A stretch of 64,000 bases of DNA from Pseudomonadota bacterium (GCA_003577275.1 QEVO01000007.1:68840-132839); one strand, 5' to 3'; shown: positions 22,965-37,080, counted from the first letter of the stretch. The notes: generated by a model not told the origin, from the letters alone. Numbers and translations are program-made.

Positions 22965-25163
22965 ATGACGTCCGACCGCCATATTATTATTACCTATGCC
23001 TATCGTCCGATGATGCTGGCCTTGCTGACGGCAGCCCCGGTAGCTGCGGCAACGCCCGCCTTGGCCTCGGCGGATGCCGCGGCCGACCCGGCAGTGGGAA
23101 AACTCACAATCGAAGAGGTGATCGTCACCTCGCGCAAAAAAGAGGAGAACCTGCAGAAAACCCCGATCGCGGTCACCGCCCTGACCACCGCCGGTCTGGA
23201 AAATCGCACCATCGCCAATATCACCGATATCGCCAATTTCGTGCCCAACGTGCAGTTCCAGGCCGGACCCGCCGGCGGTTCGGGAGCCAATTTCTTCATT
23301 CGCGGCATCGGCGTCGCCGACTGGATTGCGGCGCTGGAACCGGGCGTCGGCAGCTACATTGACGGCGTCTATCTTGGCCGCACCACCGGCGGCGCTTTCG
23401 ACCTCCTAGACATCGAACGCATCGAGGTGCTGCGCGGCCCGCAAGGGACGTTGTTTGGCCGCAATACCATCGGCGGCGCGGTCAGCGTGATTACGGCAAA
23501 GCCTACGGATGCGCTGGAAGGCGAGATCCAGGGCGTGGCCGGCAGTCGGGAAAAATGGGGAGCCAAGGGCTGGATCAACCTGCCGATGGTGGAGGAGAAA
23601 CTTGCCGCCCGTCTCTTCTTCCGCGCTGAAACCCAGGATGGCTACGGCAAACGACTGTTCGATGACACCACCGCCGGCGATAAGGAAATCTGGTCGGCGC
23701 GCGCCGCTGTGCGCTGGCACGCCAGCGAGGATGTCATTATCGACCTGTCGGGCGACTACTGGAAGCGCGACGGCGGCGCGGATTTTACGCATACCTTGGC
23801 GCTCAATCAGCTGTTTTTCCCTGATACGTCGCAGTATGTGACCAGCGATCGCTACGCCACCTGGTCCGGTCTGCAGGGCGGCAATGACACCGAAATTTGG
23901 GGCATCGGCGCTACCGCCGAATGGCGCGCCGCCGATAATCTGACGCTGAAATCCATTACCGCCTACCGCAAATTGGATCAAAGCACCGGCGTTGATTTTG
24001 ACGGCACGCCCATCGCCCATGTGGACCAATTGGCGATCACCGATCAGCATCAGTTCAGTCAGGAATTCCAGATCAGCGGCGAGAATTTCGACAGCCGCTT
24101 GAACTGGCTTCTCGGCCTTTACTATTTCGAGGAAAAGATTGACCAGTTCATTCCCTTAACCTCTGTCGCCTTCTTTGGCGGCGGCACGCTGCATCAGGAT
24201 AACTACCACGATAATAAAAACGCCGCCGTGTTTGCTCATGCCACCTATGCGCTTACGGACCAACTGAACATGAGCGCCGGACTGCGCTACAGCTATGAAA
24301 AGAAACAGCAGACATTCGATCACTACTTGGATGTAGGCATCATCGTGCCGATTCTTGACAATGAATTTATTGAGGATAGCTGGAAGAAATTGACACCCAA
24401 GGTAGGGCTGGAATATCAGGCAACGGATGACGTGCTACTCTACGTTTCCTATTCGTCCGGCTTCCGCAGCGGTGGTTTTAATGGCCGCCCCATCAATACG
24501 GCATCCATCAGCAGCTATGATCCGGAAATAGCCAATGTGTACGAGGCCGGCGTCAAGTCGCAGCTTTTTGATAACCGTGTGCAGCTGAATTTGGCGGCGT
24601 TCTACAACGACTATAAGGATCTGCAATTGACCTTACCGGAAATGACGCCGTCTGGCCCGGCCATCATTGCGCAAAACGCCGCCAAGGCGCGTATTTACGG
24701 CTTCGAGGCGGAAGGCATGATGCGTCTAACCGAATCGCTCGATATCAACTTCGGCGCCGGTTACCTCAACGCAAAGTACAAGGAAGTGGACCCCAGCGCC
24801 GAATTTACCGTGGATGACCCGCTGATCACCACGCCAAAATGGTCGTTTAACGCCGGCATCCAATACGCCATGCCCCTCAGCAATCTAGGCACGCTGACCA
24901 TGCGGGCGGATTATGCGTATCGCAGCAGCTTCTATTTCTTCAGCATCGGCCCCAACGCGCGCCAAAAAGCGTACGATATCGTCAACCTGAAGGCCAGCTT
25001 CGAACCTGATAATAGCAAGTGGAAGATCGCCGCCTATGGTTTGAATGTATTTGACGAAACCTATGCGCTCTTTGCCCAGGATGCCCTGTCGACCTATGGC
25101 TTGGCGCATGAATGGGTAGCACCGCCCGCCGAGTGGGGCGTCGAGCTGACGTTCAGATTTTAA
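22965..25163 (+). CDS. TonB-dependent receptor (cassette A)
   Basis: 732 aa with a signal peptide. EEVIVTSRKKEENLQKTPIAVTAL and RIEVLRGPQGTLFGRNTIGGAVSV. C-terminal ...WGVELTFRF. Confidence 0.9.
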   Translation: MTSDRHIIITYAYRPMMLALLTAAPVAAATPALASADAAADPAVGKLTIEEVIVTSRKKEENLQKTPIAVTALTTAGLENRTIANITDIANFVPNVQFQAGPAGGSGANFFIRGIGVADWIAALEPGVGSYIDGVYLGRTTGGAFDLLDIERIEVLRGPQGTLFGRNTIGGAVSVITAKPTDALEGEIQGVAGSREKWGAKGWINLPMVEEKLAARLFFRAETQDGYGKRLFDDTTAGDKEIWSARAAVRWHASEDVIIDLSGDYWKRDGGADFTHTLALNQLFFPDTSQYVTSDRYATWSGLQGGNDTEIWGIGATAEWRAADNLTLKSITAYRKLDQSTGVDFDGTPIAHVDQLAITDQHQFSQEFQISGENFDSRLNWLLGLYYFEEKIDQFIPLTSVAFFGGGTLHQDNYHDNKNAAVFAHATYALTDQLNMSAGLRYSYEKKQQTFDHYLDVGIIVPILDNEFIEDSWKKLTPKVGLEYQATDDVLLYVSYSSGFRSGGFNGRPINTASISSYDPEIANVYEAGVKSQLFDNRVQLNLAAFYNDYKDLQLTLPEMTPSGPAIIAQNAAKARIYGFEAEGMMRLTESLDINFGAGYLNAKYKEVDPSAEFTVDDPLITTPKWSFNAGIQYAMPLSNLGTLTMRADYAYRSSFYFFSIGPNARQKAYDIVNLKASFEPDNSKWKIAAYGLNVFDETYALFAQDALSTYGLAHEWVAPPAEWGVELTFRF

Positions 25164-25175
25164 TCTGTGACTTGA

Positions 25176-25219
25176 AGCCCAGGCGGGCAGCGCAATCCCT
25201 GCTCGCATGGGCTATTTTT
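25176..25219 (+). terminator. Imperfect hairpin plus T-tract after the TBDR gene (possible attenuating terminator)
   Basis: AGCCCAGGCGGGCAG-N8-CTGCTCGCATGGGCT has 2 mismatches in the stem and is followed by ATTTTTGG. It lies 13 nt after the TBDR stop and before the Rieske gene SD. Confidence 0.4.
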
Positions 25220-25247
25220 GGACTTCTATATAGCCAGGAGAACTGCG

Positions 25248-26270
25248 ATGACGATGGCAAAGATGCGCTCGGCAAAAATAACCTCTAAGGGCCCTCACTT
25301 AGGCGATCCCATCCCGGCGGAGGGTGAGAACGGCCTTTTTTCGCAAAGCTGGTTTCCGATCTGCCGTTCCTATGACATCAGACCCGGCGAAGTCAAAGGC
25401 TTCGATTTCCTCGACGGTCGGGTGATCGTGTTTCGCGGTGAAAACGGCGTCGCATCGGTCAAAAGCGCCTACTGCCCCCATGTCGGCGCGGATTTGTCGG
25501 TGGGCAAGGTAGTGGGCAACAACATTCGCTGCGCCTTCCATCACTGGGACTATGACCAATCAGGCAAATGCGTGAAAACTGGTATCGGCGATCCGCCGCC
25601 ACCCACCGCCTGCCTGTTCAACTTTCCCACGTTGGAGCGGTTCGGCGTCATCTGGGCCTTCAACGGCGAGGAGCCGCTGTTTGAACTGCCCAGCTTCCGT
25701 CATCCGGATAACGAACTGGAAATCGGCGTCATTGCCGGCGATACCTATAATTGCGATGGCTGGGTGTTCGCCTGCAACACGCCGGATATGCAGCATTTGA
25801 AGGTGGTTCATAAAATCATGCCGCACCACGCTGATCCGCACAAAGATGTGGAATGGGATCCATGGGGCTTCCATTACAATGTCGCCGCCGCTCACGGCCA
25901 GGGGCCGGAAATCGGCTGGCGGCTGGCCATCCGTGGCACCAGCATTTTCCATCAGCAGGGCATGATTGATGACTGGTGGTTCGGCGTTATTGCGGGATTT
26001 TCCTGCCCACGGCCCGGCAAGCATCAGATCTTTCTGGCCTGCGCCACCCATCGCGGCTCCGGCTCCGTCGCCGATGTTGCCTTGGCCAAGGAACGGCTGG
26101 AACGCGGCATGATCATCATTCGGCGCACGGCGGATGAAGACCGCGATATTCTCAATACTATTCATTATCGTCCCGGCACGCTGACCAAGGGTGATACCAC
26201 CTTGGCGAAGTATCTGGACTTCTTGCGAGGATATCCGCGCGCCCATCCCAGCGCCCGGTTCATCGTGTAG
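25248..26270 (+). CDS. Rieske [2Fe-2S] non-heme-iron oxygenase, alpha-only type (cassette A)
   Basis: Rieske motif CPHVGADLS...CAFHHWDY and mononuclear iron motif DMQHLKVVH (D-x2-H-x4-H). I place the start at ATG 25248 (MTMAKMRS...), which has an AGGAG SD 8 nt upstream. The track's 25218 TTG start lies inside the upstream T-tract. Confidence 0.85.
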   Translation: MTMAKMRSAKITSKGPHLGDPIPAEGENGLFSQSWFPICRSYDIRPGEVKGFDFLDGRVIVFRGENGVASVKSAYCPHVGADLSVGKVVGNNIRCAFHHWDYDQSGKCVKTGIGDPPPPTACLFNFPTLERFGVIWAFNGEEPLFELPSFRHPDNELEIGVIAGDTYNCDGWVFACNTPDMQHLKVVHKIMPHHADPHKDVEWDPWGFHYNVAAAHGQGPEIGWRLAIRGTSIFHQQGMIDDWWFGVIAGFSCPRPGKHQIFLACATHRGSGSVADVALAKERLERGMIIIRRTADEDRDILNTIHYRPGTLTKGDTTLAKYLDFLRGYPRAHPSARFIV

Positions 26271-26289
26271 GAACAAGAGGAATATAGTA

Positions 26290-26682
26290 ATGGCCATCAA
26301 AGGAAGCGCCTATCATATTCGCGCTCTGGAGCATCAATTCCACTACTCTCAGGCCGTCAAAAGCAATGGTCGGCTTTATATCTCCGGGACCGTCAGCTGG
26401 GACATGGAGAGCAATCCCCTCCATGCCGGAGACATGCGCGGTCAAGTCAGCGCCGCTTACCAAGAACTGGAGAAAACCTTGCTGGAAAATGGCGCCGATT
26501 TTTCCAACGTCGTCAAGGAAACGGTTTACACCACCAATATAGAGGCCTTGGCCGAGGCCAATGATATCCGCATGAAGTTCTATGAAGGCGTTGACCCTCC
26601 GGCGGCGACATGGGTGGAGGTACGCCGGCTCTTGCACCCGGATTTCCTGGTTGAAATTGAACTCATCGTCGAGCTTGCATAG
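26290..26682 (+). CDS. RidA/YjgF/TdcF-family enamine/imine deaminase (cassette A)
   Basis: 130 aa from ATG 26290 (MAIKGSAY...), with an AAGAGGA SD upstream. YSQAVKSNGRLYISGTVSW, ETVYTTNIE and a C-terminal VEIELIVEL are typical of the RidA family. Confidence 0.85.
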   Translation: MAIKGSAYHIRALEHQFHYSQAVKSNGRLYISGTVSWDMESNPLHAGDMRGQVSAAYQELEKTLLENGADFSNVVKETVYTTNIEALAEANDIRMKFYEGVDPPAATWVEVRRLLHPDFLVEIELIVELA

Positions 26683-26862: not shown

Positions 26863-27858
26863 GTGCGGCACGTGACACCGACAAAATCACAGCAGCATTG
26901 GATGTATTCCCGGATGGTATTGAGCCGCGGGTATGAGGAGCGGCTGGCGGCGGCGTATATGGAGGGCAAGACGCCGCTGTTCAATATGGCCAACGGGCCG
27001 CTGCCGGGAGAGATGCATTTGTCGAACGGGCAGGAGCCCTGCGCGGTGGGGGTATGCGCGCATCTGGGGGCGGACGATGTGATCACCGCCACGCACCGGC
27101 CGCATCACATCGCCATCGCCAAGGGCGTCGACTTGCAGGCGATGACGGCGGAGATTTTCGGCAAGAAGGCCGGGTTGTCGGGCGGTCGCGGCGGCCATAT
27201 GCACATCTTTGACCCAAAGGTGAACTTCGCCTGTTCGGGGATCATCGCTCAGGGCATGGGGCCGGCGGCAGGCGCGGCCCTGGCGCGCAAACTGCGCGGC
27301 GAGCCGGGGGTGGCGGTGGCGTTCATCGGCGAAGGCGCCGCCAACCAGGGGGCGTTTCACGAGGTGATGAACATCGCGGCGCTGTGGAAGCTGCCGTTTG
27401 TGTGCGTGATCGAGGACAACGCCTGGGGCGTGTCGGTGGCGAAGAGCCAATCCACCGCGGTGGCCCGCAACGACGTGCGCGCCGCGGCCTACGGCATCCC
27501 CGGCGTCTATGTGCCGGGCAATGACCCTTACGCCATCTATGCGGCCGCCGGCGAGGCGATCGCGCGGGCCAGGGCGGGCGGTGGTCCGACGTTGATCGAG
27601 ATTGAGACCTGGCGGCTGGCGGGCCACTTCATGGGCGACGTGGAAGGCTATCGTCCGGCCGGGGAAAAGGAGGCGCTTTTTGCCCGCGACCCCATCCCCG
27701 CCATGCGTCAGCGGATGATCGCGGAAAAAACCGCGACGGCGGAGGACGTAGTGGCGCTGGAGGCGGAGGCCAAGGCCACTTTGGACGAGGTGTTCAATTT
27801 TGCCCGCGCCGCGGCGGAGCCGCAGCCCGAGGAAGCGTTGGAAAAGGTATTCGTATAA
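26863..27858 (+). CDS. TPP-dependent 2-oxoacid/acetoin dehydrogenase E1 component, alpha subunit (cassette A)
   Basis: 331 aa. E1-alpha motifs GEMHLSNGQEPCAVG, GGRGGHMHIF and IGEGAANQGAFHEVMNIAALWKLPFVCVIEDNAWG (the TPP-binding GDG-like region). GTG 26872 is an alternative start; it fits the GGAG SD and the paralog N-terminus better. Confidence 0.9.
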   Translation: MRHVTPTKSQQHWMYSRMVLSRGYEERLAAAYMEGKTPLFNMANGPLPGEMHLSNGQEPCAVGVCAHLGADDVITATHRPHHIAIAKGVDLQAMTAEIFGKKAGLSGGRGGHMHIFDPKVNFACSGIIAQGMGPAAGAALARKLRGEPGVAVAFIGEGAANQGAFHEVMNIAALWKLPFVCVIEDNAWGVSVAKSQSTAVARNDVRAAAYGIPGVYVPGNDPYAIYAAAGEAIARARAGGGPTLIEIETWRLAGHFMGDVEGYRPAGEKEALFARDPIPAMRQRMIAEKTATAEDVVALEAEAKATLDEVFNFARAAAEPQPEEALEKVFV

Positions 27859-27869: not shown

Positions 27870-28904
27870 ATGGCGGAACCAGCCAGACGAGACAATCGCC
27901 GCAAACGCAAGCTCACCATCGCCAAGGCCATCAGCGAAGCCATCGCCCAGGAGATGGAACGCGACAGCGGCGTTTTTGTCATGGGCGAGGATATCGCCAA
28001 GCTGGGCGGCGTGTTCGGCAATACCCAGGGACTCCTCGACAAGTTCGGACCGGAGCGAGTGCGCGACACGCCGATTTCCGAGACCGGCTTCATCAGCATG
28101 GCGGTGGGCGCGGCGGCGGTGGGGATGCGCCCCCTGGTGGAGCTGATGTTCGTCGACTTCTTCGGGGTGTGCATGGACGCCATCTATAACCTGGCGGCCA
28201 AGCAGGCCTATTTCTCCGGCGGTCATGTCAAATGCCCGATGGTGCTGATGACCTCGGTGGGCGGCGGCTATTCCGACGCCGGGCAGCACAGTCAATGCCT
28301 TTACGGCACCTTTGCCCATCTGCCGGGCATGAAGGTGGTGATCCCTTCCAACGCCTATGACGCCAAGGGGTTGATGACCGCCGCCATTCGCGACGATAAC
28401 CCGGTCATTTTCATGATGCACAAGAATTTGCAGGGCATGGGCTGGCTGGGCACCGCGCCGGGGGCCATTGTGGACGTGCCCGAAGACGCTTACGAAGTTC
28501 CCCTTGGCAAGGCGGACATCGCCCGGCCGGGCAAGGATATAACCGTCGTCGGGCTCGGCGCTACGGTGCACCAAGCCTTGGATGCCGCCGAGACATTGGC
28601 CAAGGACGGCATCGAGGCGGAGGTCATTGACCTGCGCTCCCTGGTACCGCTGGATCGCGAGGCTGTTCTGAAATCCGTGCGCAAAACCGGCCGCCTCCTG
28701 GTGGTGGATGACGATTATCATAGCTTCGGCGTCTCCGGCGAAATCATCGCCACCGTGGCGGAAGCGGGCATTACCCTCAAATCACCGCCCAAGCGCCTCG
28801 CCTATCCCGATATCCCGATCCCCTTCGCCCGGCCCATGGAGCAGTTCGCCCTGCCCAACGCCGGCAAGGTCGCAACCCTCATCCGCCAGATGTTCCAGGA
28901 GTAG
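27870..28904 (+). CDS. 2-oxoacid/acetoin dehydrogenase E1 component, beta subunit (cassette A)
   Basis: 344 aa. LTIAKAISEAIAQEM, VFVMGEDIAKLGGVFG, RVRDTPISETGF and VPLDREAV form the transketolase-like pyrimidine and C-terminal domains. Confidence 0.9.
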   Translation: MAEPARRDNRRKRKLTIAKAISEAIAQEMERDSGVFVMGEDIAKLGGVFGNTQGLLDKFGPERVRDTPISETGFISMAVGAAAVGMRPLVELMFVDFFGVCMDAIYNLAAKQAYFSGGHVKCPMVLMTSVGGGYSDAGQHSQCLYGTFAHLPGMKVVIPSNAYDAKGLMTAAIRDDNPVIFMMHKNLQGMGWLGTAPGAIVDVPEDAYEVPLGKADIARPGKDITVVGLGATVHQALDAAETLAKDGIEAEVIDLRSLVPLDREAVLKSVRKTGRLLVVDDDYHSFGVSGEIIATVAEAGITLKSPPKRLAYPDIPIPFARPMEQFALPNAGKVATLIRQMFQE

Positions 28905-28906
28905 CC

Positions 28907-29137
28907 ATGACCGACGTTCGCATCGATGAGAGCTTTTGGGAGGGCGATGACCCGGCCGCGCTGACCACTTGGTACTACAGCGACGGCGCCTACGTGGAGG
29001 CCGGCAACGTCATCGCCGAGATCATGCTGCAAAAAACCCAGATGGAAATCGAGGCCCCCGTCTCTGGCACCCTCCATCATAAAACCCAGATCGAGCAGGC
29101 CGTGCGCAAGGGGGATGTCATCGCCGTCATCGATTAG
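28907..29137 (+). CDS. Stand-alone lipoyl/biotinyl-attachment domain protein (76 aa, cassette A)
   Basis: MTDVRIDESFWEG...VEAGNVIAEIMLQKTQMEIEAPVSGTL...GDVIAVID, a single hybrid-motif domain with the candidate modified Lys in MLQKTQ. It starts 2 nt after the E1 beta stop. Confidence 0.75.
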   Translation: MTDVRIDESFWEGDDPAALTTWYYSDGAYVEAGNVIAEIMLQKTQMEIEAPVSGTLHHKTQIEQAVRKGDVIAVID

Positions 29138-29309
29138 TCTTTGTCAACAATAGCTTAAGTTAGATACCAGACCTCCCCCCTCCCTACCCCACCACAATGT
29201 TTCGCCTTGCCCACCCGGTAAAAACAGGCGATCATGACGCCATGGGAGAGGTGCGGCGGATCGCCAACCGGCACGCCCTAGCAGCCCGCTATAAACTGAT
29301 GCCCGGATA

Positions 29310-31904
29310 ATGGATCATCGAGCCAATATTGCCGATGTTACTCCGACGCCTCGCGATCTTGCCCTTGAGCAGCGCTGGCGGCGGCTGTTTAACATTCAGG
29401 GCGAGCGCTCCCAGCAGAATAAAATTTGGATCTTAAAAGCCCCGGCAGGATACGGCAAGACCACTATCCTACGAGAGATGGCGAACAATGCCAGCGCCAA
29501 CGGCGGTCGCGCCATCTGGCAGAATGGCGACAGCATCGATATTCTGTCATGGTTCAGCCTGCAGCAAGGCGGTGATTTCGGCGGGCAGCGCGGGCCTAAA
29601 TACCTGTTGATCGATGATCTGGCCATCCGTTCGCAAAACGAAGCGGAACGGCTGGTGGAAATGCTCCGTGGCGCCCTTTCCAGCGTTGATCAGGTATTCA
29701 TTACCGCCCGCAAGAATACTGACATTGAATATATATCCTACCGGCTTTTCGATCGTATTGAAATTCTCGACCAGGAAAGTTTGTCGCTTGATGAAGAGAG
29801 CGTAACGCTGCTTTTCGGCGATTACCTGTCATATACCGAGGCGCGGCAAATCGTGGAATTGACAGATGGCTGGCCATTGGCCGTCCACCTTCTGCTCGCC
29901 TGCACCAGAAGCCTGAAAGAACCGCCGCTATCGACAGCAGTCATCGAGCTTCTTCATGAACGGCTGGCGCCCATTTTCGAAAGCGAGTTTTTCTCACCCT
30001 TGGCGCCCGCGGATGCGGATTTCCTCAAACGCGCCGGCCTTTTTGAGCAGGCCGACGGGGAAGTCATCAATGAAGTACTGGCGATACCGGACGCTTGGCC
30101 GCGCCTTGATCGGCTATACCGAGAAGGAGCGCTGATGCGCAAAATCAACGGCGGTCGCGGTTATACCTGCAACCATTTGCTGCGCCACCATATTCTGCGC
30201 CATCATATTCTGCGCCATCATGCCTCGGCACTCATCGATAACCTTAGCAATTTCCATCTCATAGCGGCGAACGCCTTCAATTCCCGCGGCAAGATCTGGC
30301 AGGCCCTGGCGCATGCCGAGCGCACCGGCAAATGGCAGATCATTGCCGATATCATCGAACGGTATGGCGGCCTGCGCCTCGCTCTCGCCTCGCCTTTCGT
30401 CATCAGCAGATATTTGGATGTCATCCCCATTGAGGCCTATCGCAACTATCCCTTGATCGCGCTTGGCCAGATCTACGTCTTGATACAGCAGGGAAAGCTC
30501 GGTTACGCCTACGATCTGTTCCGGCAGTTGCAGGATAGCGGCGTTATTGACGACAATGGCATGGCATGGGTGCAAAGCCAATTGGTGCTTGAAATTCTTC
30601 GCATGTATCACGATCAGCCGATGCCGCCGGAAGAGATTGATGCCTTAGAAGCCAATATCATCAAGCGCGTCGCAATGGACCGCTTAACGCAGGCGATGAT
30701 CTATCTTTTGAAGGCTTTTTCCTATTTCCGTAGCGGAGCGGTGCATCAGGCGCTGCTTTATGCCGAGCGGCTGCGTGAGATAAATAATGATCTTAATGCT
30801 GAGCTGTTGCGTAATTATACGAATTTTCTCCTTGGATTGTGCCTTCTGAAAAGCGGCCATTTACGGCAGGCGGAATTAATTTTCGAGACCACGGTTGCAT
30901 CATCGCAAAGAAGCTTCGGCCAACATAACATTCAAGCGTTACTGGCGCTTGCTTTGCTGGCCCGAACCCGGGTCGATCGCCTGGCGACCATGGAGACAAA
31001 AGGCTTGGTCGAGCTTTTCATGGAGCCTATCGAACAAACCATACGCTGGTACGACGGCTGCGAAGCGGCCTTTTCAGCCGCCTCCTTCGTATGGTTCGAG
31101 CTGGAGGGCGCGGAGGCCGCTGCAGCCAGGCTTGACGCCATGGCGGAACGCTACCGCTCCCGCCAACTGACAGCCCTGGAAAGAGTGGTGACTGTTCTGA
31201 AAATCCGCGCTCTCATTCGCGGCGGTCTGTTTGATAAGGCGCGCACAGCTTTGGCTGAAGCAGCCATCATCAGTCTAATGGCTGAGGGCGCACGCAAGGA
31301 CCGCTGGTCGCGCCCGAGCTATTTCAAGGCCATGCTCTGCGTCATTCAGCTCGATGTTCTGCAGCATCGGGGCACGGTTGATTCCTTGACCGTGCAGAAC
31401 CTGTTCCAGGATATCAAGCAGAGCGGTGACGAGCCCTTGCATATGCGCGTGCTAATCACGCAGACGCTGATGGCAGCCGCCCAACATAATGACCAACAAG
31501 GACTTGAATTCTTGCGGGATGCGCTTCGGCTCGCCATCGCAACCGGAATCAAGCGACCGCTTTATGAGTCGTGGGCTTATCTCTCGACTATGGCGGATAG
31601 CATGCTGCAACGACGTATGTTGGGCAGCGCTGAGCAGGAGCTGGTCAGCGAACTGGCCCGTCTCTCGGCGGTTGGCACCGTCCACTCGCCGGAAGCGCCG
31701 AATTTGAGCCCCCGCGAGCGCGAGGTGCTGACCATGCTAGCCTACGGCCTGTCGAGCAAGGAAATGGCCAACCGGCTGCGCGTCTCCATCGGCACCGTGA
31801 AGGGATACCGCCGCAAGCTTTACGAAAAACTTGGCGTCACCAGCCGCTCGCAGGCGGTGAAGTCGGCGCGAGATCTAGGGCTTGCCCTGCCGACGCTGCA
31901 ATAA
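29310..31904 (+). CDS. LAL/MalT-type large ATP-binding LuxR-family transcriptional regulator (second copy)
   Basis: 864 aa. Walker A (ILKAPAGYGKTTIL) and C-terminal LuxR HTH (LSPREREVLTMLAYGLSSKEMANRLRVSIGTVKGYRRKLYEKLGVTSRSQAV). Confidence 0.9.
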   Translation: MDHRANIADVTPTPRDLALEQRWRRLFNIQGERSQQNKIWILKAPAGYGKTTILREMANNASANGGRAIWQNGDSIDILSWFSLQQGGDFGGQRGPKYLLIDDLAIRSQNEAERLVEMLRGALSSVDQVFITARKNTDIEYISYRLFDRIEILDQESLSLDEESVTLLFGDYLSYTEARQIVELTDGWPLAVHLLLACTRSLKEPPLSTAVIELLHERLAPIFESEFFSPLAPADADFLKRAGLFEQADGEVINEVLAIPDAWPRLDRLYREGALMRKINGGRGYTCNHLLRHHILRHHILRHHASALIDNLSNFHLIAANAFNSRGKIWQALAHAERTGKWQIIADIIERYGGLRLALASPFVISRYLDVIPIEAYRNYPLIALGQIYVLIQQGKLGYAYDLFRQLQDSGVIDDNGMAWVQSQLVLEILRMYHDQPMPPEEIDALEANIIKRVAMDRLTQAMIYLLKAFSYFRSGAVHQALLYAERLREINNDLNAELLRNYTNFLLGLCLLKSGHLRQAELIFETTVASSQRSFGQHNIQALLALALLARTRVDRLATMETKGLVELFMEPIEQTIRWYDGCEAAFSAASFVWFELEGAEAAAARLDAMAERYRSRQLTALERVVTVLKIRALIRGGLFDKARTALAEAAIISLMAEGARKDRWSRPSYFKAMLCVIQLDVLQHRGTVDSLTVQNLFQDIKQSGDEPLHMRVLITQTLMAAAQHNDQQGLEFLRDALRLAIATGIKRPLYESWAYLSTMADSMLQRRMLGSAEQELVSELARLSAVGTVHSPEAPNLSPREREVLTMLAYGLSSKEMANRLRVSIGTVKGYRRKLYEKLGVTSRSQAVKSARDLGLALPTLQ
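30180..30224 (+). repeat. In-frame 15-bp tandem repeat x3 inside the LAL regulator gene
   Basis: CTGCGCCACCATATT / CTGCGCCATCATATT / CTGCGCCATCATGCC, encoding LRHHI-LRHHI-LRHHA. Confidence 0.9.
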
Positions 31905-31905
31905 T

Positions 31906-32574
31906 TCACCGCTCTTCGATAGCCCTCGCCAGATCGGTGAGAAAGGCGGCGGCTGGCGCACCATCGATGGCGCGATGATCGATGGACAGCGACAAGGCGA
32001 TCATCGGCGTCACCCCAAGCGCGCCGTCGGCGCGAGCCACTGGCCTGTTGACGATGCGGCCCAGGCCTAGGATGGCAAGCTGGGGGATGTTGATGAGCGG
32101 CGTGAAGTGATCAATGCGGTAATGGCCAAGATTACTCACCGTGAAGCTGGCGCCGGTCATCTCGGCAACGGTAAGCTTGTTGGTTTTGGCGCGCGCCACC
32201 AGATCGCGGCGAGCCTCGCTTAAGCCTTCAACAGATAAAGCTTGCGCGCCCATGATCGCCGGCGCAACAAGGCCGTTCGCCAAGGCGACGGCGATACCCA
32301 AATCAATGGCCGGCCGCAGCGTGATCACCTGCTCGCTGAGCGTGCCGTTAAGCGCCGGGTGGCGGGTCAAAGTCTGCACCACGCACATCAGCAACAGGTC
32401 TTCCAGGGATGCCGCCCCGCCTTCCGCCTTGATCGCCGCGCGCCGGGCGACCAGCGCATCGGCATCGGCCTCGCTGTATAGCGTCGCCCGCGCCGTAGTG
32501 CTCACGCTTTCAGCCATCCGCGCCGCAATCATGCCGCGCAGACCCTTTAAGGGAATGCGAGTTGGTTCCGACAT
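31906..32574 (-). CDS. 2-oxoacid dehydrogenase acyltransferase (E2) catalytic domain only (cassette B)
   Basis: 222 aa. Catalytic motif SLSIDHRAIDGAPAAAFL (DHRxxDG) plus GASFTVSNLG. There is no lipoyl domain or peripheral subunit-binding domain. It abuts the upstream lipoyl-protein gene. Confidence 0.85.
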   Translation of the reverse strand: MSEPTRIPLKGLRGMIAARMAESVSTTARATLYSEADADALVARRAAIKAEGGAASLEDLLLMCVVQTLTRHPALNGTLSEQVITLRPAIDLGIAVALANGLVAPAIMGAQALSVEGLSEARRDLVARAKTNKLTVAEMTGASFTVSNLGHYRIDHFTPLINIPQLAILGLGRIVNRPVARADGALGVTPMIALSLSIDHRAIDGAPAAAFLTDLARAIEER

Positions 32575-32804
32575 TACGCGATGGCGCCGATGACCTCGCC
32601 AGGCAGCACCGTGGATTCGGCGGGCTTGGCAATCTTCAACCGGCCGGCGGCGGGAGCATTAATTTCAATCTGCACCTTTTCGATCATCACCTCCGCCACC
32701 AGCGCATCCTGGTTCACGGTATCACCGTCCTCATAAAGCCAAGTGACGATAACGCCTTCTTTATCGGCCTCCCAGAGGCCCTCTGGTATGCGAATATCGG
32801 TCAT
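32574..32804 (-). CDS. Stand-alone lipoyl/biotinyl-attachment domain protein (76 aa, cassette B)
   Basis: MTDIRIPEGLWEA...ALVAEVMIEKVQIEINAPAAGRL...GEVIGAIA. It has the same length and layout as the 28907..29137 product. Confidence 0.75.
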   Translation of the reverse strand: MTDIRIPEGLWEADKEGVIVTWLYEDGDTVNQDALVAEVMIEKVQIEINAPAAGRLKIAKPAESTVLPGEVIGAIA

Positions 32805-32819: not shown

Positions 32820-33869
32820 TTACATCATGGCGCGCGCAGCGGCGACGATCTTCCGGACATTAGGCAGACAGTGCTGCTCCATGGGTCGCGCAAAGGGGAT
32901 CGGGATATCAGGAAACGCGATACGCTTGGGCGGGCATTTAAGCGACTTGATGTCCCGCTCGGTCACCGTGGCAATAATCTCGGCGGTGACGCCGTAGCTC
33001 AAGTAATCGTCATCCACCACGATCAACCGGCCGGTTTTTTGCACCGAACGGCAGACCGTGTCGCGATCCAACGGCGCCAGCGATCGAAGGTCAACCACTT
33101 CGGCGCTTACGCCTTCTTTCTCCAGGGTCTTGGCGGCCTCAAGGCCTTGATGCACGGTCATGCCAAGGCCGACAATGGTCACGTCCGTCCCGTCTCGCAC
33201 CACGTTGGCCTTGCCGAGAGGCACGGTGTAGCTGTCTTCCGGCACATCGACGATGGCGCCCTGGATGGTGCCGAGAAAACCCATGCCCTGCAGGTTCTTG
33301 TGCATCATGAACACCACCGGATTGTCGTCGCGGATGGCCGATGTCATCATGCCCTTGGCGTCATAGGCATTGGACGGCATCACCACCTTCATGCCCGGCA
33401 AATGGGCAAAGGTGGCGTACAAACATTGCGAATGCTGGGTGGAATCGCAATAGCCGCCGCCCACCGCCGTGGTCAGCACCATGGGCGCCTTGAAAGTGCC
33501 GGCGGAATGGTAGCTCGATTTGGCAGCCAGGTTATAGATCGCATCCATGCAGACGCCGTAAAAGTCGACAAACATCAGCTCGACAATGGGCCGCATGCCT
33601 AGATTGGCTGCGCCCACCGCCGCGCCGATGAAGGCGGTTTCCGAAATCGGCGTATCGCGCACCCGTTCTTCGCCGAATTCCGCCAACAGCCCGCCGGTAT
33701 ATCCCCACACCGCGCCCAGAATGCCAATATCTTCTCCCATGAGGAAAACGTTTTTATCGCGACGCATTTCCTGGGCGATGGCCTCGTTTAAGGCCTTGGC
33801 GATGGTCAGTTTGCGTTCATTGCGATTCTTCTGCGCCGGCTTGACGGCGGTTGCTTCCACAACGCTCAT
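32820..33869 (-). CDS. 2-oxoacid/acetoin dehydrogenase E1 beta subunit (cassette B)
   Basis: 349 aa. LTIAKALNEAIAQEM, VFLMGEDIGILGAVWG and RVRDTPISETAF. It is collinear with the 27870..28904 product. Confidence 0.9.
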   Translation of the reverse strand: MSVVEATAVKPAQKNRNERKLTIAKALNEAIAQEMRRDKNVFLMGEDIGILGAVWGYTGGLLAEFGEERVRDTPISETAFIGAAVGAANLGMRPIVELMFVDFYGVCMDAIYNLAAKSSYHSAGTFKAPMVLTTAVGGGYCDSTQHSQCLYATFAHLPGMKVVMPSNAYDAKGMMTSAIRDDNPVVFMMHKNLQGMGFLGTIQGAIVDVPEDSYTVPLGKANVVRDGTDVTIVGLGMTVHQGLEAAKTLEKEGVSAEVVDLRSLAPLDRDTVCRSVQKTGRLIVVDDDYLSYGVTAEIIATVTERDIKSLKCPPKRIAFPDIPIPFARPMEQHCLPNVRKIVAAARAMM

Positions 33870-33881: not shown

Positions 33882-34868
33882 TTACACAAAGACTTTATCA
33901 AAGGCGTCTTCCGGCGCCGGTTCCGCCGCCGCGCGGGCGAAGGCAAATGCCTCATCCACTTCGGCATGAGCCCGCGCCACAATGGCGTCGGCTTCGATTT
34001 CCGTCATCACGCCAGCGGCGATCAATTTCCGACGATAGCGCGGAATGGGGTCCATCTCCGGCTTGGCGGCGATCTCCGCCTTGGGGCGGTAAACTTCGGG
34101 ATCGCCCATGAAATGGCCCTGCAATCGCACGGTTTGCAGCTCCAACAGGCTTGGCCCCTCGCCGGCGCGCGCCCGCGCCACCGCCCGGCCAACCGCGGCG
34201 AAAATATCATCAGGATCGTTGCTGATGACGCGCTCGCCCGGCATGCCGTAGGCGGCGGCGCGATCGGCGTTGGAGGCAATCGCCGTCGACTTCGATTTGG
34301 GAACCGAGACCGCCCACTGATTGTCCTCGATGACGCAAATGAACGGCAGTTTCCAGACCGCCGCCAAGTTCATCGCTTCATGGAAGCCGCCTTGGTTGGC
34401 GCCGCCCTCGCCGATACAGGCAATAGCTATGCCTGCCTCCCCTCTCATTTTCCTGGCAAGTGCGGCGCCAACCGCCGGCCCCATGTTCTGTCCGATAATG
34501 CCGCTTGACCAGAACAGCACCTCATAATCAAAAATATGAATGTGCCCGGCCCGGCCCTCGGACAGCCCCGCTTTGCGGCCCAGTATTTCCGCCGTCATTC
34601 GTTTCAAATCAACGCCCTTGGCCAACGCCTGAGCATGCGAGCGATGGTGACAAGCAAAATAATCATCCTTGGTTAGATGCGCGCCCAAACCCACCGCGCA
34701 TGGTTCCTGGCCATCCGACAAGTGCATCTCGCCGGGCAGCGGACCGTTCGCCATATTAAAGAGCGGCGATTTTCCTTCCATATAGGTCGCCGATAGCCGC
34801 GCTTCGTTGTAGCGGTTTTTGACCATCATCTCGTACATCCATAAGCGTTGTTTAGGTGTCGGTTGCAT
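33882..34868 (-). CDS. 2-oxoacid/acetoin dehydrogenase E1 alpha subunit (cassette B)
   Basis: 328 aa. GEMHLSDGQEPCAVG and IGEGGANQGGFHEAMNLAAVWKLPFICVIEDNQWA. It is collinear with the 26863..27858 product. Confidence 0.9.
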   Translation of the reverse strand: MQPTPKQRLWMYEMMVKNRYNEARLSATYMEGKSPLFNMANGPLPGEMHLSDGQEPCAVGLGAHLTKDDYFACHHRSHAQALAKGVDLKRMTAEILGRKAGLSEGRAGHIHIFDYEVLFWSSGIIGQNMGPAVGAALARKMRGEAGIAIACIGEGGANQGGFHEAMNLAAVWKLPFICVIEDNQWAVSVPKSKSTAIASNADRAAAYGMPGERVISNDPDDIFAAVGRAVARARAGEGPSLLELQTVRLQGHFMGDPEVYRPKAEIAAKPEMDPIPRYRRKLIAAGVMTEIEADAIVARAHAEVDEAFAFARAAAEPAPEDAFDKVFV

Positions 34869-34893: not shown

Positions 34894-36186
34894 TCAGCGA
34901 TAAACCACATGACTCAAGGCGGGCAGCGCCAGCCGATTGATCAGCAGCGACATCATGCCCGCAAAAGGCACCGATTTGAGCGCCATCGGCGGCACGCGAA
35001 GCCGGGCGCGATCGCCGGTGGCCATCCAATCGGCCATCTCCGTTCCCACCATAGACGCCTGGGCAATGCCGTTTCCTGAATAGCCATAAGCGGCAAAAAG
35101 CCCGGGCGACAACTCTTCGGTCTTGACCAAGGCATCCGACGGCACGCAGATATGGCCATGCCATAGGGATTGCCATCCGACCCTTTCCGGCGCATCAGGA
35201 AAGGCATTACGGAACATCCGCCAAAAGGGGCGCGCCGCGGCCGCCGGCGTAATGCCGTCTCTGAACGCCGGCAGCACCGAGGTCACCAGCCTGCCGTCGC
35301 CGTCAAAGCCGACGCCAAAGGCATCACGGGAGTCTACATCCGCCACCGCCACCCCTTGCGGTAAATAGCGCCGGCCCTGATCCGCAAACGGCTCAGAGGC
35401 GATCATGGCGATTTTGATGTGCAGGAATTTGCTCTGCATCTTGCCGAAAATCGGTGAGAAAGCGTTAGTCGCCAACAACACCTGTTGGGCCTTCACTGTT
35501 CCCATCGGCGCTGTCACGCGCCAGCCATTGCCCGCGGGCGAAAGACCGATAACCGGGCTTTGACCGTGAATGCGCACGCCAGCCCGCACCGCCGCGGCGG
35601 CCAACCCACGGCAGTAATCCAACGGCTGCAGTTGCCCGCCATCGCGGTAGATGATGCCGCCGATATAGCGATCGGTGGCGATATAGCCGCGCATGGCGGC
35701 GGCATCGATGTCATCCACCGGCGCGCCCCATTGCCGCCACGTCGCAGCCGAATTTTGAAGCTTTTTCAGCGTCTCCGGCGTGCGCGCCGCGCACACGACA
35801 CCCACTTGCCGGATGTCGCATTCGATAGCGTGGGTTGTGACAAGCTGGCTGACCAAACGGCCGGCGTCGATCATCATTTGACAGAAACGCCCACCATCCG
35901 CCTCGCCGAAACGCTCTAATGCTTTCTCCGGCGTCATCAGCGTCCAGAACGGCACCCACCAGCCGGTATTGCGGCCGGAAGCGCCGAAACCCGGCTCTTG
36001 CGCTTCAAGCACGATGACGTCACGGCCATGTGAGGCGAACCGCAAGGCTGCCGCCAGGCCGGTGTAGCCAGCGCCAATAATTGCCACATCCGCCGTGGCG
36101 TCAGCGCCAAGCGGCGGGTAGGTTGGAGCCGGGCGCGCCGTCCGCCGCCATAAGTTATCGTGCCAAGGCTCCATCGATTCCGCCAC
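34894..36186 (-). CDS. FAD-dependent oxidoreductase (DAO / amine-oxidase-like family)
   Basis: 430 aa. The N-terminal dinucleotide fold DVAIIGAGYTGLAAALRFASHGRDVIVLE followed by GASGRNTG is typical of the DAO family (PuuB/OrdL-like). Confidence 0.85.
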   Translation of the reverse strand: MAESMEPWHDNLWRRTARPAPTYPPLGADATADVAIIGAGYTGLAAALRFASHGRDVIVLEAQEPGFGASGRNTGWWVPFWTLMTPEKALERFGEADGGRFCQMMIDAGRLVSQLVTTHAIECDIRQVGVVCAARTPETLKKLQNSAATWRQWGAPVDDIDAAAMRGYIATDRYIGGIIYRDGGQLQPLDYCRGLAAAAVRAGVRIHGQSPVIGLSPAGNGWRVTAPMGTVKAQQVLLATNAFSPIFGKMQSKFLHIKIAMIASEPFADQGRRYLPQGVAVADVDSRDAFGVGFDGDGRLVTSVLPAFRDGITPAAAARPFWRMFRNAFPDAPERVGWQSLWHGHICVPSDALVKTEELSPGLFAAYGYSGNGIAQASMVGTEMADWMATGDRARLRVPPMALKSVPFAGMMSLLINRLALPALSHVVYR

Positions 36187-36218
36187 TTCTGCTCCGTATC
36201 ACGATTTGCCGATAAAAC

Positions 36219-36659
36219 TCAGGCGGCGCAGCCGAGGATCTCGGCAACGGCATCGGCGATGCTTTGCTCGGCGGCAGTGTAGAACGTCTGGAATTCGGCG
36301 GCCGTCATGCCGATGGGAACCAGCCGGCTGGAAAAGCATAAGGTCGAGGCGCGAGGTCCCGCCGGCGTTACGCATAGCTGGCCGGTGTAATCGCCGAGCG
36401 GTAAATCGCCGCAGTCGAGTACGCCATAGCGGTACCGCCGCGCCCCTTCGTCATAGCTGAGCAACACCTCGGTGAACGGCGATCCACCGGCAGTTGGCGT
36501 CATGGTGCGCGTGGCACCAATTATCGGCTCGCGGGTCGAAAAAGTTACGGCATTGAAGAAGACCTTCCCAGAAAGTCTCTCAATGCCAGCCCAGTTGACC
36601 AATGACCAAACGTCTGATGCCTTGGCGTTGATGCGAAAACCGGCATGCACTTCGATCAT
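36219..36659 (-). CDS. SRPBCC (START/Bet v1/polyketide cyclase-like) family protein
   Basis: 146 aa. The start MIEVHAGFRINAKASDVWSLVNWAGIERL resembles the Polyketide_cyc2 N-terminus. The call is tentative. Confidence 0.5.
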   Translation of the reverse strand: MIEVHAGFRINAKASDVWSLVNWAGIERLSGKVFFNAVTFSTREPIIGATRTMTPTAGGSPFTEVLLSYDEGARRYRYGVLDCGDLPLGDYTGQLCVTPAGPRASTLCFSSRLVPIGMTAAEFQTFYTAAEQSIADAVAEILGCAA

Positions 36660-36666
36660 CGCGCCC

Positions 36667-37080
36667 TCACCCGCGCACCGGCGGCAGTTCCGCCGTGATT
36701 TCCACCTCCAGCATGAAATCCTCGTTGAACAGGCGGGAAACCTGCACCCAGGTCGCCGCTGGCGGCGCCACCTGATCGTCCTTGAAAAACTTCAGCCGTT
36801 CATCCGCAGCTTCCACTACCGCCGACAGGTTGGTGGTATAAACGGTTTCACGCACCACATGGGCATAGGTCAGCCCGTAATCGCGCAAGATATTCTCAAT
36901 TTCCTTGTAGATGGTGCGAATCTGGGTGCGGGCATCACCCTTGCCGATGCAATTCGCGTTCTCATCGCAGCTGCAAATGCCGGACAGCATTAGAAAAGGT
37001 CCGGATACCACGGCCTGGGAAAACCCCACCGCTTTCTCCAGGGCCGGTCTGTAATGACGAATTTGTTTCGTGACAGCCAT
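36667..37080 (-). CDS. RidA/YjgF-family enamine/imine deaminase (cassette B)
   Basis: 137 aa. FSQAVVSGPFLMLSG, ETVYTTNLS and LEVEITAEL. Confidence 0.8.
   Translation of the reverse strand: MAVTKQIRHYRPALEKAVGFSQAVVSGPFLMLSGICSCDENANCIGKGDARTQIRTIYKEIENILRDYGLTYAHVVRETVYTTNLSAVVEAADERLKFFKDDQVAPPAATWVQVSRLFNEDFMLEVEITAELPPVRG

What the first reader, a model, noticed from the sequence alone, without database searches (positions are those of the whole stretch)
28907..32804. Split E2: free-standing lipoyl carrier proteins, one catalytic-domain-only acyltransferase, no E3
Seen: both cassettes encode a 76-aa single lipoyl/biotinyl-type domain (candidate Lys in MLQKTQ / MIEKVQ) immediately after E1 beta. 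Only cassette B has an E2 catalytic domain (222 aa, DHRAIDG), and it is a separate ORF without a lipoyl or peripheral-subunit-binding domain. No dihydrolipoamide dehydrogenase (E3) gene is in the window.
Established: canonical 2-oxoacid and acetoin dehydrogenase E2 proteins are single chains of lipoyl domain(s), PSBD and catalytic core.
Inference: a dissociated carrier-protein style system, in which cassette A either borrows the cassette B acyltransferase or uses its lipoyl protein differently. Without a PSBD, how E1 and E3 dock is unclear.
Basis: partly seen in the sequence, partly recalled or inferred. Interest (0 to 1): 0.62.

Follow-up and report, generated by a model that had tools for sequence, protein, structure and literature searches.

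The report
Naturally split, untethered E2 acyltransferase system
In this sphingomonad, the E2 core enzyme of a pyruvate-dehydrogenase-type system is encoded as a free 76-residue lipoyl carrier protein plus a bare acyltransferase with no docking domain. The split is real, conserved in many bacteria and apparently unstudied, and a second neighbouring cassette keeps its own carrier but has no acyltransferase at all.

Summary
Two paralogous cassettes each end in E1alpha, E1beta and a 76-aa single-lipoyl-domain protein with Lys43 at the hairpin tip. Only cassette B adds a 222-aa protein that is an E2 catalytic domain and nothing else. No E3 gene lies in the window.

It is not a frameshift. Four independent metagenome assemblies carry the junction without indels. 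All 19 other catalytic-only E2 genes I examined, from Alpha- and Gammaproteobacteria, follow the same order E1alpha, E1beta, ~77-aa lipoyl protein, ~230-aa E2. Their junctions differ.

These split E2s group apart from 17 fused E2s (support 100/99). They have no room for a subunit-binding domain. 118 of 121 lack the C-terminal hydrophobic helix that joins E2 trimers into 24- or 60-mer cores.

Best reading: an unassembled system resembling the glycine cleavage system. A diffusible lipoyl carrier shuttles between its own E1, a probably trimeric acyltransferase and a housekeeping E3 (three lpdA genes lie elsewhere).

Cassette A is under purifying selection. Its nearest relative (G010) and an independently E2-less cassette (G300) lie in genomes with no split E2 at all, so the acyltransferase can evidently be borrowed.

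I found no published description. This is a new variant of a known kind. All function is inferred.

The parts
28907..29137 (+). Lip_A: free-standing 76-aa lipoyl carrier of cassette A (Lys43). No E2 gene follows it.
   Evidence: Pfam Biotin_lipoyl and Biotin_lipoyl_2 only. 43% identical to Lip_B. Member of the stand-alone family A1 with invariant K43, W22 and G54. dN/dS 0.36 against the sister species. No E2 remnant downstream.
27870..28904 (+). E1 beta of cassette A
   Evidence: Transket_pyr plus Transketolase_C. 72% identical to E1beta_B. dN/dS 0.10. Groups with the E2-less cassettes of G012 and G010, support 95/93.
26863..27858 (+). E1 alpha of cassette A (ThDP-binding subunit)
   Evidence: E1_dh, 2.3e-65. 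64% identical to E1alpha_B. dN/dS 0.10.
22965..26682 (+). Upstream genes of cassette A: TonB-dependent receptor (22965-25163), alpha-only Rieske oxygenase (25218-26270), RidA-family protein (about 26191-26682; start uncertain)
   Evidence: Pfam.
29310..31904 (+). LuxR/MalT-type STAND (LAL) regulator between the two cassettes. Its stop is 1 nt from the E2cat stop.
   Evidence: GerE plus nSTAND_NTPase5. dN/dS 0.09.
31906..32574 (-). E2cat: 222-aa catalytic-domain-only acyltransferase. It has no lipoyl domain, no PSBD and no C-terminal trimer-trimer helix.
   Evidence: PF00198 only. AF2 pLDDT 94.3, last element is helix 205-221. TM 0.9 to E2 cores. Falls in the split group, support 100/99. Tail after DHRAIDG is 17 residues against 21-25 in fused E2s.
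32574..32804 (-). Lip_B: free-standing 76-aa lipoyl carrier of cassette B (Lys43). Its stop overlaps the E2cat start (TAATG).
   Evidence: Pfam Biotin_lipoyl. AF2 pLDDT 93 with Lys43 in the turn between strands 35-41 and 44-49. Best fold matches are E2o lipoyl domains. dN/dS 0.10.
32820..33869 (-). E1 beta of cassette B
   Evidence: Pfam. Nearest solved structure is G. stearothermophilus PDH E1beta, 6e-83.
33882..34868 (-). E1 alpha of cassette B
   Evidence: E1_dh, 2e-70.
34894..40459 (-). Upstream genes of cassette B: DAO-family FAD oxidoreductase (34894-36186), SRPBCC protein (36219-36659), RidA (36667-37080), Rieske oxygenase (37095-38150), TonB-dependent receptor (38174-40459)
   Evidence: Pfam and NCBIfam. 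The DAO protein has no CxxxxC redox disulfide, so it is not an E3 substitute.
19992..22709 (-). Second LAL regulator, divergent from cassette A
   Evidence: GerE plus TPR_MalT plus STAND NTPase.

Best explanation
The locus encodes a naturally dissociated form of the lipoate-dependent 2-oxoacid/acetoin dehydrogenase machinery.

Proposed cycle:
1. Each heterotetramer-type E1 (alpha and beta subunits) decarboxylates or cleaves its substrate on ThDP.
2. It reductively acylates the lipoyl-Lys43 of its own free-standing 76-aa carrier protein.
3. The acyl-dihydrolipoyl carrier diffuses to a bare E2 catalytic protein, which passes the acyl group to CoA. This protein is predicted to be only a CAT-like trimer, because the whole family lacks the C-terminal trimer-trimer helix.
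4. The reduced carrier is re-oxidised by one of the three housekeeping lipoamide dehydrogenases encoded elsewhere.

Nothing is docked by a PSBD. The carrier plays the role that H-protein plays in the glycine cleavage system.

E1 is the component that must recognise the lipoyl domain, so every E1 keeps a cognate carrier. E2 and E3 act mainly on the lipoyl arm, so they can be shared. Cassette A therefore works without its own E2. It most likely uses E2cat of cassette B, 3.4 kb away, or failing that a housekeeping E2.

Shown here: gene content, domain limits, conservation of the split, group membership, purifying selection, and integrity of the sequence.

Inferred: lipoylation, trimeric state, diffusion mechanism, sharing of E2 and E3, and the substrates. 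The substrates are probably 2-oxoacids made from an imported amine or amino-acid-like aromatic compound by the Rieske oxygenase, DAO oxidase and RidA.
For: Domain content and junction.

Sequence integrity: the junction and the E2-less end of cassette A are identical, without indels, in four independent assemblies.

Conservation of the split: more than 700 short proteins matched E2cat, and the best 120 (222-257 aa, mostly 47-58% identical) carry PF00198 only. All 19 other split E2 genes examined have E1alpha, E1beta and a ~77-83-aa lipoyl gene immediately upstream. Their junctions range from a 26-nt overlap to a 20-nt gap.

Lipoylation: a lipoate-protein ligase gene lies in about 11 of 22 related loci, immediately downstream of the E2 or carrier in 9.

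Stand-alone carrier family: it has invariant K43, W22 and G54. It scores above 100 bits, against 65 or less for canonical lipoyl domains. About a third of the best 150 representative hits are proteins of 75-83 aa.

Separate group: split E2s separate from 17 fused E2s with support 100/99 on a branch of 1.13. In genome scans, split-type hits score 203 bits or more in open frames of 250-301 aa. Fused E2s score 198 or less.

Missing helix: 118 of 121 family members lack the P-x-x-hydrophobic C-terminal motif, which is present in 11 of 17 fused E2s. That helix is what builds 24- and 60-mer cores (bioRxiv 10.1101/2020.07.24.212647).

Feasibility: with E. coli E1o/E3 and E1p/E3, separately expressed lipoyl and catalytic domains support the overall reaction with no covalent link (PMC5986005).

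E3 and lipoylation supply: three E2-E3 pairs and one LipB/LplA-type gene lie elsewhere in the genome.

Cassette A:
- dN/dS is 0.10 for both E1 subunits and 0.36 for Lip_A.
- Its E1beta groups with E2-less cassettes (95/93), and a second, independent E2 loss is seen in G300.
- G010 and G300 have no split E2 anywhere.
Against: No biochemical evidence exists for any member.

- Lipoylation, oligomeric state and substrates are all inferred.
- The window itself has no lipoate ligase gene.
- Loss of the C-terminal helix predicts a trimer but does not prove one. The carrier, E1 and E2cat might still bind each other through surfaces that sequence analysis cannot see.
- The set of fused E2s in the tree is small (17) and does not include bona fide AcoC proteins. 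'Separate group' therefore means separate from those sampled.
- Lip_A evolves faster than Lip_B (dN/dS 0.36 against 0.10). This could mean relaxed constraint on cassette A.
- The one RNA-labelled run is a long contig and does not prove transcription.
Confidence: 0.72

Rival explanations
1. The Lip_B/E2cat split is a sequencing or assembly frameshift in a normal fused E2.
For: The stop and start overlap by one base (TAATG), so a single indel could join the frames.
Against: Four independent assemblies show zero gaps across the junction. A fusion would still lack linker and PSBD, since lipoyl residue 76 abuts catalytic-domain position 3. Nineteen relatives have separate ORFs with different junction geometries. 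Both genes are under purifying selection against the sister species.
Confidence: 0.01
2. The 76-aa proteins are biotinyl carriers of an unrelated carboxylase. A close homologue is in fact annotated 'biotin attachment protein'.
For: The Pfam family is shared by biotinyl and lipoyl domains. The public name of a cluster member at 90% identity or more is 'biotin attachment protein'. Biotinyl domains appear among the fold matches.
Against: There is no MKM motif. The gene always sits between E1beta and a lipoamide acyltransferase, and no carboxylase genes are in the cassettes. An LplA/B-type ligase gene lies in many related loci. The best sequence and fold matches are E2o lipoyl domains, 32-39% identical, against 14-27% for biotinyl domains. 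NCBIfam hits are all to lipoyl regions of E2.
Confidence: 0.02
3. The parts are separate genes but still assemble into a stable complex through contacts other than the PSBD. For example, the carrier might bind E2cat or E1beta tightly. The system would then be split genetically but not dissociated physically.
For: Tight translational coupling of E1beta, Lip and E2cat suggests stoichiometric co-production. The family-specific conserved N-terminal 'LW(E/D)' and W22 motif of the carriers could be a docking surface.
Against: E2-less cassettes persist in genomes without any split E2. This argues against an obligate carrier-E2cat complex. The trimer-trimer helix and the PSBD are both missing. Untethered domains are known to work in vitro.
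Confidence: 0.2
4. Cassette A is a decaying remnant that no longer functions, having lost its E2.
For: Lip_A evolves faster, with dN/dS 0.36 and 72% amino-acid identity against 95% for Lip_B. In the sister species the TBDR, Rieske and RidA genes of cassette A are deleted.
Against: E1alpha_A and E1beta_A have dN/dS 0.10 and intact frames in both species. Lip_A keeps K43 and the AEIMLxKTQMEIEAP core. The E2-less state is shared with G010, in another family of the order. It therefore appears long-lived rather than a recent breakage.
Confidence: 0.08
5. Cassette A's acyl-carrier is unloaded by a housekeeping E2 core (PDH, OGDH or BCKDH) rather than by E2cat of cassette B.
For: G010 and G300 carry E1-Lip cassettes but only canonical E2s of 415-518 aa open frame. 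In G010 the carrier gene is followed by an enoyl-CoA hydratase gene, which implies a CoA-ester product.
Against: In this genome a dedicated split E2 lies 3.4 kb away in the convergent cassette, and both species of the genus keep this arrangement. Nothing tested here distinguishes the two routes.
Confidence: 0.25

Closest known systems
Canonical E2 (dihydrolipoamide acyltransferase) of alpha2beta2-E1 complexes, e.g. Geobacillus stearothermophilus PDH E2p (1b5s, 3duf) with E1 (1w85)
   Same: Same catalytic fold and motif. The profile hit to 1b5s is 9e-52 and TM is about 0.9. DHRxxDG and the FT(V)SN(L)G region are conserved. The E1beta is closest to G. stearothermophilus E1beta. The lipoyl fold has Lys at the hairpin tip.
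   Different: Here the lipoyl domain is a separate protein. There is no linker, no PSBD and no C-terminal trimer-trimer helix. No E3 gene lies in the operon.
Acetoin dehydrogenase enzyme system AcoA/AcoB/AcoC/AcoL with sigma-54 activator AcoR
   Same: Some database names for family members are 'acetoin dehydrogenase'. Relatives outside the sphingomonads sit with an AcoR/MimR-type sigma-54 activator, a GMC oxidoreductase or an alcohol dehydrogenase. Both are alpha/beta E1 systems that depend on lipoate.
   Different: AcoC carries its lipoyl domain in the same chain, and AcoL (E3) is usually in the operon. The window's cassettes have LAL regulators, TonB receptors, Rieske oxygenases and RidA instead. 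The substrate is unknown.
Glycine cleavage system (free lipoylated H-protein shuttling between P, T and L proteins)
   Same: This is the proposed working principle: a small free lipoyl protein visits separate enzymes and is re-oxidised by the shared lipoamide dehydrogenase.
   Different: The carrier here belongs to the Biotin_lipoyl (E2-type) family, not the GcvH family. The partner enzymes are a ThDP-dependent E1 and a CAT-fold acyltransferase.
Actinobacterial trimeric E2p (Corynebacterium AceF, 6zzi) and OdhA, which borrows AceF lipoyl domains
   Same: It is a precedent that E2 can be reduced to its trimeric unit by changes at the C-terminal helix, and that lipoyl domains can be supplied in trans. 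These structures are among the best matches.
   Different: AceF keeps its lipoyl domains and PSBD in one chain. It blocks assembly by a 3-residue insertion. The family here simply ends before the helix.
Engineered split E2o and E2p of E. coli (separately expressed lipoyl and catalytic domains)
   Same: It shows that E1, a free lipoyl domain, a free catalytic domain and E3 complete the overall reaction without a covalent link (PMC5986005).
   Different: That is a laboratory construct. Here the split is natural, conserved and under selection.

Membership tests
Canonical multidomain E2 of 2-oxoacid dehydrogenase complexes | CAT-fold catalytic domain (PF00198) with the DHRxxDG active site | tested here: met
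   PF00198, 7e-64, with DHRAIDG at residues 199-205. D199, H200 and G205 are invariant in the family. TM about 0.9 to E2 cores.
Canonical multidomain E2 of 2-oxoacid dehydrogenase complexes | One or more lipoyl domains in the same polypeptide | tested here: not met
   The lipoyl domain is a separate 76-aa ORF. The separation is conserved in 19 of 19 relatives.
Canonical multidomain E2 of 2-oxoacid dehydrogenase complexes | Peripheral subunit-binding domain (E3_binding, PF02817) between lipoyl and catalytic domains | tested here: not met
   No PF02817 hit at E<=0.01 in any cassette ORF. The catalytic domain starts at residue 3. Most family members have 8-17 residues (range 5-29) before the catalytic domain.
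Canonical multidomain E2 of 2-oxoacid dehydrogenase complexes | C-terminal hydrophobic 3-10 helix mediating trimer-trimer contacts (24- or 60-mer core) | tested here: not met
   The Pfam match stops at position 226 of 232. The tail has 17 residues after DHRAIDG, against 21-25 in fused E2s. The motif is absent in 118 of 121 family members. The oligomeric state itself was not measured.
Stand-alone E1-linked lipoyl carrier family (alignment A1) | About 75-83 aa, single Biotin_lipoyl fold, invariant Lys at the hairpin, gene immediately after E1beta | tested here: met
   (125 and 109 bits, against 65 or less for canonical domains).
Stand-alone E1-linked lipoyl carrier family (alignment A1) | Lys43 actually carries lipoate | not testable with these tools
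   Indirect evidence only: LplA/B-type ligase genes in related loci, and one LipB/LplA-type gene in this genome.
Acetoin dehydrogenase enzyme system (AcoABCL/AcoR) | AcoC with a fused lipoyl domain, AcoL (E3) in the operon, AcoR sigma-54 activator | tested here: not met
   The lipoyl domain is separate, no E3 lies on the contig, and the regulators are of LAL type. AcoR-like regulators do flank relatives in other taxa.
Acetoin dehydrogenase enzyme system (AcoABCL/AcoR) | E1 cleaves acetoin or another alpha-hydroxyketone | not testable with these tools
   The E1 subunits score below the PDH equivalog cut-offs (276 and 259 bits against a cut-off of 394). Substrate unknown.
Glycine cleavage H-protein | GcvH fold and family | tested here: not met
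   Pfam places both carriers in Biotin_lipoyl. The best fold matches are E2 lipoyl domains. The resemblance is in proposed function only.
Biotin carboxyl carrier protein | (A/V)MKM biotinylation motif and linkage to biotin carboxylase or carboxyltransferase | tested here: not met
   The motifs are MLQKTQ and MIEKVQ. No carboxylase genes are in the cassettes.

The most novel reading that the evidence does not exclude
Free lipoyl carriers act like acyl carrier proteins for oxidative decarboxylation. Each catabolic E1 brings its own cognate carrier. Unloading to CoA and re-oxidation are done by whatever E2 and E3 the cell has: a trimeric split E2 where present, and otherwise the housekeeping cores. 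One acyltransferase and one E3 pool would then serve several E1-carrier pairs, with no complex and no substrate channelling. The two-cassette locus here (two E1-carrier pairs, one E2cat, no E3) would be a natural instance. It would show that the textbook megadalton architecture is dispensable for this chemistry in peripheral catabolism.
Probability: 0.4. Interest if true: 0.75.

Novelty: new variant of a known kind. Interest (0 to 1): 0.6.

Why it matters
2-oxoacid and acetoin dehydrogenases are the textbook example of a tethered swinging arm working inside a giant scaffolded complex. This locus belongs to a conserved natural family that lacks the tether, the docking domain and the core-forming helix. 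It offers a direct test of how much the architecture matters for catalysis.

It also suggests that E1-carrier modules can be plugged into catabolic operons while sharing E2 and E3. On the practical side, public annotation of these genes is misleading ('biotin attachment protein', 'acetoin dehydrogenase', 'E2'). Small untethered parts would also be convenient for pathway engineering.

Tried and rejected
- **Frameshift or misassembly:** rejected from independent assemblies and conserved separate ORFs.
- **Remnant of an E2 gene after Lip_A:** tblastn of 53 split E2s on 29050-29450 gave nothing better than E=0.18.
- **DAO-family flavoprotein of cassette B as a stand-in E3:** rejected. It has no CxxxxC disulfide, and its best family is pipecolate-oxidase-like.
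- **Apparent 60-nt patch shared by the two E1beta genes in read laying, considered as gene conversion:** rejected. The re-lay shows 8 mismatches in 60, and the longest exact match between the paralogues is 22 nt. It is ordinary paralogy.
- **A common replacement acyltransferase next to E2-less cassettes:** none found. The genes that follow differ: an LAL regulator here, an enoyl-CoA hydratase in G010, and LplA then a TBDR in G300.
- **Literature:** four full-text searches for stand-alone or split lipoyl/E2 systems found no natural example. The 'lipoyl carrier protein' LarG of Pelobacter and LbpA of sulfur oxidisers are GcvH-like and unrelated.
- **Substrate assignment from solved relatives of the Rieske and DAO proteins:** too distant to use. 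The best Rieske hit is 1.7e-13 to SxtDIOX/DdmC/KshA-type oxygenases, and DAO has no hit at 1e-10.
- **Promoter and terminator scan of 28800-32900:** uninformative.

Full report
**Observation**

- Cassette A (+ strand) reads TonB-dependent receptor, alpha-only Rieske oxygenase, RidA, E1alpha (26863-27858), E1beta (27870-28904), then a 76-aa protein (28907-29137).
- Cassette B (- strand) reads TonB-dependent receptor, Rieske oxygenase, RidA, SRPBCC protein, DAO-family flavoprotein, E1alpha (34868-33882), E1beta (33869-32820), a 76-aa protein (32804-32574), then a 222-aa protein (32574-31906).

Pfam finds only Biotin_lipoyl-type domains in the two small proteins. It finds only the 2-oxoacid_dh catalytic domain in the 222-aa protein, covering profile positions 3-226 of 232. 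No E3_binding domain appears in any ORF of either cassette. Both small proteins have the candidate lysine at position 43. The 222-aa protein has DHRAIDG. The Lip_B stop and the E2cat start overlap as TAATG.

There is one E2 catalytic domain in the window, and no remnant of another lies in the 172 bp after Lip_A. No lipoamide dehydrogenase lies on this contig.

**Not an artefact**

Contigs from four unrelated public metagenome studies (wastewater, bioreactor, sediment, soil) cover 31800-33000 and 28600-29500. They show no gaps and at most three substitutions. Two of them span both cassettes on one contig. A hypothetical one-base repair would in any case yield a lipoyl domain butted directly onto the catalytic domain, with no linker or PSBD. 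That is not a normal E2.

**A conserved family**

A search restricted to short proteins found more than 700 homologues of E2cat. The best 120 are all 222-257 aa with PF00198 alone. Most are 47-58% identical, and they come from Rhodobacteraceae, Hyphomicrobium, Halomonas, Motiliproteus and Myxococcota.

I examined the genomic context of 19 such genes:
- three from public assemblies;
- eleven from a scan of 301 genomes of the same order;
- five from a scan of 401 genomes of the phylum.

Every one follows the order E1alpha, E1beta, ~77-83-aa lipoyl protein, E2cat. The lipoyl/E2 junctions range from a 26-nt overlap to a 20-nt gap, so the two reading frames are independently maintained.

The carriers form a coherent family with invariant W22, K43 and G54 and a typical AE(I/V)M-x-(E/A/Q)-K core. 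They are sharply separated in score from canonical lipoyl domains, at more than 100 bits against 65 or less. About a third of the best 150 representatives in an exhaustive HMMER search are free 75-83-aa proteins.

The family is uncommon. It occurs in 13 of 301 genomes of the order and 6 of 401 of the phylum. A close homologue of Lip_B is publicly named 'biotin attachment protein [Sphingomonadales bacterium]'.

**Anatomy**

- AlphaFold2 models are confident. The carrier scores pLDDT 93, with Lys43 in the turn between strands 35-41 and 44-49. E2cat scores pLDDT 94.3.
- The carrier's best structural and sequence matches are E2o lipoyl domains.
- E2cat superposes on E2 cores at TM about 0.9, and its profile hits G. 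stearothermophilus E2p at 9e-52.
- In a maximum-likelihood tree, 53 split E2s separate from 17 fused E2 catalytic domains on a branch of 1.13 with support 100/99. The fused sample is modest and lacks authentic AcoC.
- Family members have only a short N-terminal stretch before the catalytic domain, 8-17 residues in most and 5-29 overall.
- After DHRxxDG they have a median of 19 residues, against 24 in fused E2s. 118 of 121 lack the 'P-x-x-hydrophobic' C-terminal motif, which 11 of 17 fused E2s show.
- That C-terminal 3-10 helix is the 'knob' that joins trimers into cubic or dodecahedral cores. Altering it leaves actinobacterial E2p as a trimer (bioRxiv 10.1101/2020.07.24.212647).

I therefore infer, and have not shown, that the split E2 is a free trimer.

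**E3 and lipoylation**

The genome has three canonical E2 genes, each followed by a full lipoamide dehydrogenase gene. It has a single LipB/LplA-type gene. In about 11 of 22 related loci an LplA/B-type ligase gene lies in the locus, immediately downstream of the E2 or the carrier in 9 of them. This is the best indirect evidence that the carriers are lipoylated. One relative (Hyphomicrobium) has an E3 gene 3 kb away. Most have none nearby.

**Cassette A**

Its E1 subunits are 64% and 72% identical to those of cassette B, and its carrier is 43% identical.

Against the sister species of the same genus, all genes show purifying selection:
- E1alpha_A 0.10
- E1beta_A 0.10
- Lip_A 0.36
- Lip_B 0.10
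- E2cat 0.15

In that sister species the receptor, Rieske and RidA genes of cassette A have been deleted.

In an E1beta tree, the window's cassette A groups with the sister's cassette A and with an E2-less cassette of another family of the order (G010), support 95/93. A further E2-less cassette (G300) arose independently. G010 and G300 have no split E2 anywhere, only canonical E2s. In G010 the carrier gene is followed by an enoyl-CoA hydratase gene, which implies that CoA esters are still made.

More divergent free lipoyl proteins also follow E1beta in other genomes of the order, with no E2 detected in the 1.5 kb of flank available. E1-carrier modules without their own E2 are thus a stable state. 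The acyltransferase step must be supplied in trans.

**Mechanism proposed**

1. E1 reductively acylates its cognate free carrier.
2. The carrier diffuses to E2cat, or to another E2, for transfer to CoA.
3. The carrier is then re-oxidised by a housekeeping E3.

This agrees with established knowledge that E1 is the component that recognises the lipoyl domain specifically (work of Perham and colleagues, cited within PMC5986005). It also agrees with the demonstration that E. coli E1o or E1p, a free lipoyl domain, a free catalytic domain and E3 carry out the overall reaction with no covalent link (PMC5986005). It explains why each cassette keeps its own carrier while E2 and E3 are dispensable locally.

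The upstream genes are an outer-membrane importer, a Rieske mono-oxygenase distantly like DdmC, KshA and SxtT, an amine-oxidase-like flavoprotein, and the imine/enamine deaminase RidA. They suggest that the E1 substrates are 2-oxoacids derived from an imported amine or amino-acid-like compound. This last point is speculative.

**Comparison and novelty**

The system works like a cross between an acetoin/2-oxoacid dehydrogenase and the glycine cleavage system. It fails three defining features of a canonical E2: a fused lipoyl domain, a PSBD and the core-forming helix. It also fails the operon features of AcoABCL.

Four full-text searches found no description of a natural split of this kind. Earlier unchecked notes of this scan report similar split or E2-less modules in other phyla, also without finding literature. 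They agree with this report but are not independent proof.

I rate it a new variant of a known kind. It is real and conserved, but every functional statement is inferred.

Noticed in passing
L040:5784-6479 (sister species G012, contig C15): In the sister species most of the LAL_A regulator and the TBDR, Rieske and RidA genes of cassette A are deleted. Only 79-aa and 90-aa remnants remain. E1alpha_A, E1beta_A and Lip_A stay intact under purifying selection.
   Followed up: partly
L044:5456-15737 (G010): This E2-less cassette reads TBDR, E1alpha, E1beta, Lip, enoyl-CoA hydratase. It is flanked by a two-subunit ring-hydroxylating dioxygenase, a class I/II aminotransferase, a UbiD-family decarboxylase, a thiolase-like protein and a TetR regulator. 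It looks like an aromatic amino-acid-like catabolic island.
   Followed up: partly
L005, L007, L009, L053-L057: Outside the sphingomonads the split module is typically accompanied by a GMC oxidoreductase, often with a small unannotated ~165-200-aa partner. It also comes with an AcoR/MimR-type sigma-54 activator and an LplA/B ligase. In Halomonas a Zn-alcohol dehydrogenase gene is inserted between E1alpha and E1beta. This suggests a diol or hydroxyketone substrate there.
   Followed up: no
L031:1492-1728, L034:1486-1722, L036:1495-1725: A second, more divergent set of free 76-78-aa lipoyl proteins with canonical ETEKS/ETDKS motifs also lies directly after E1beta genes in other genomes of the order. 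No E2 was detected in the 1.5 kb of flank available; in L031 and L034 the next gene is a TonB-dependent receptor. Free carriers next to E1 are therefore not confined to one family.
   Followed up: partly
window 31904-31906: The LAL regulator (+) and E2cat (-) converge, with stop codons 1 nt apart. No terminator-like hairpin lies between them, so convergent transcription may collide or overlap.
   Followed up: no
window 28907-29137: Lip_A is only 72% identical to its orthologue in the sister species, while neighbouring genes are 92-96% identical. Its dN/dS is 0.36 against about 0.1 for them. The Lys43 core motif is unchanged.
   Followed up: partly
window 25218-26270 and 37095-38150: Both alpha-only Rieske oxygenases have only distant solved relatives (SxtDIOX/SxtT, KshA, DdmC, CntA, NdmA; E 1e-13 to 1e-6). 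Their C-terminal catalytic domains match no Pfam family.
   Followed up: partly
public annotation of the Lip_B cluster (MBW7836475.1): A cluster member at 90% identity or more is named 'biotin attachment protein', and JGI names relatives as a full 'E2 component'. Both names are misleading for a 76-aa free lipoyl carrier.
   Followed up: yes
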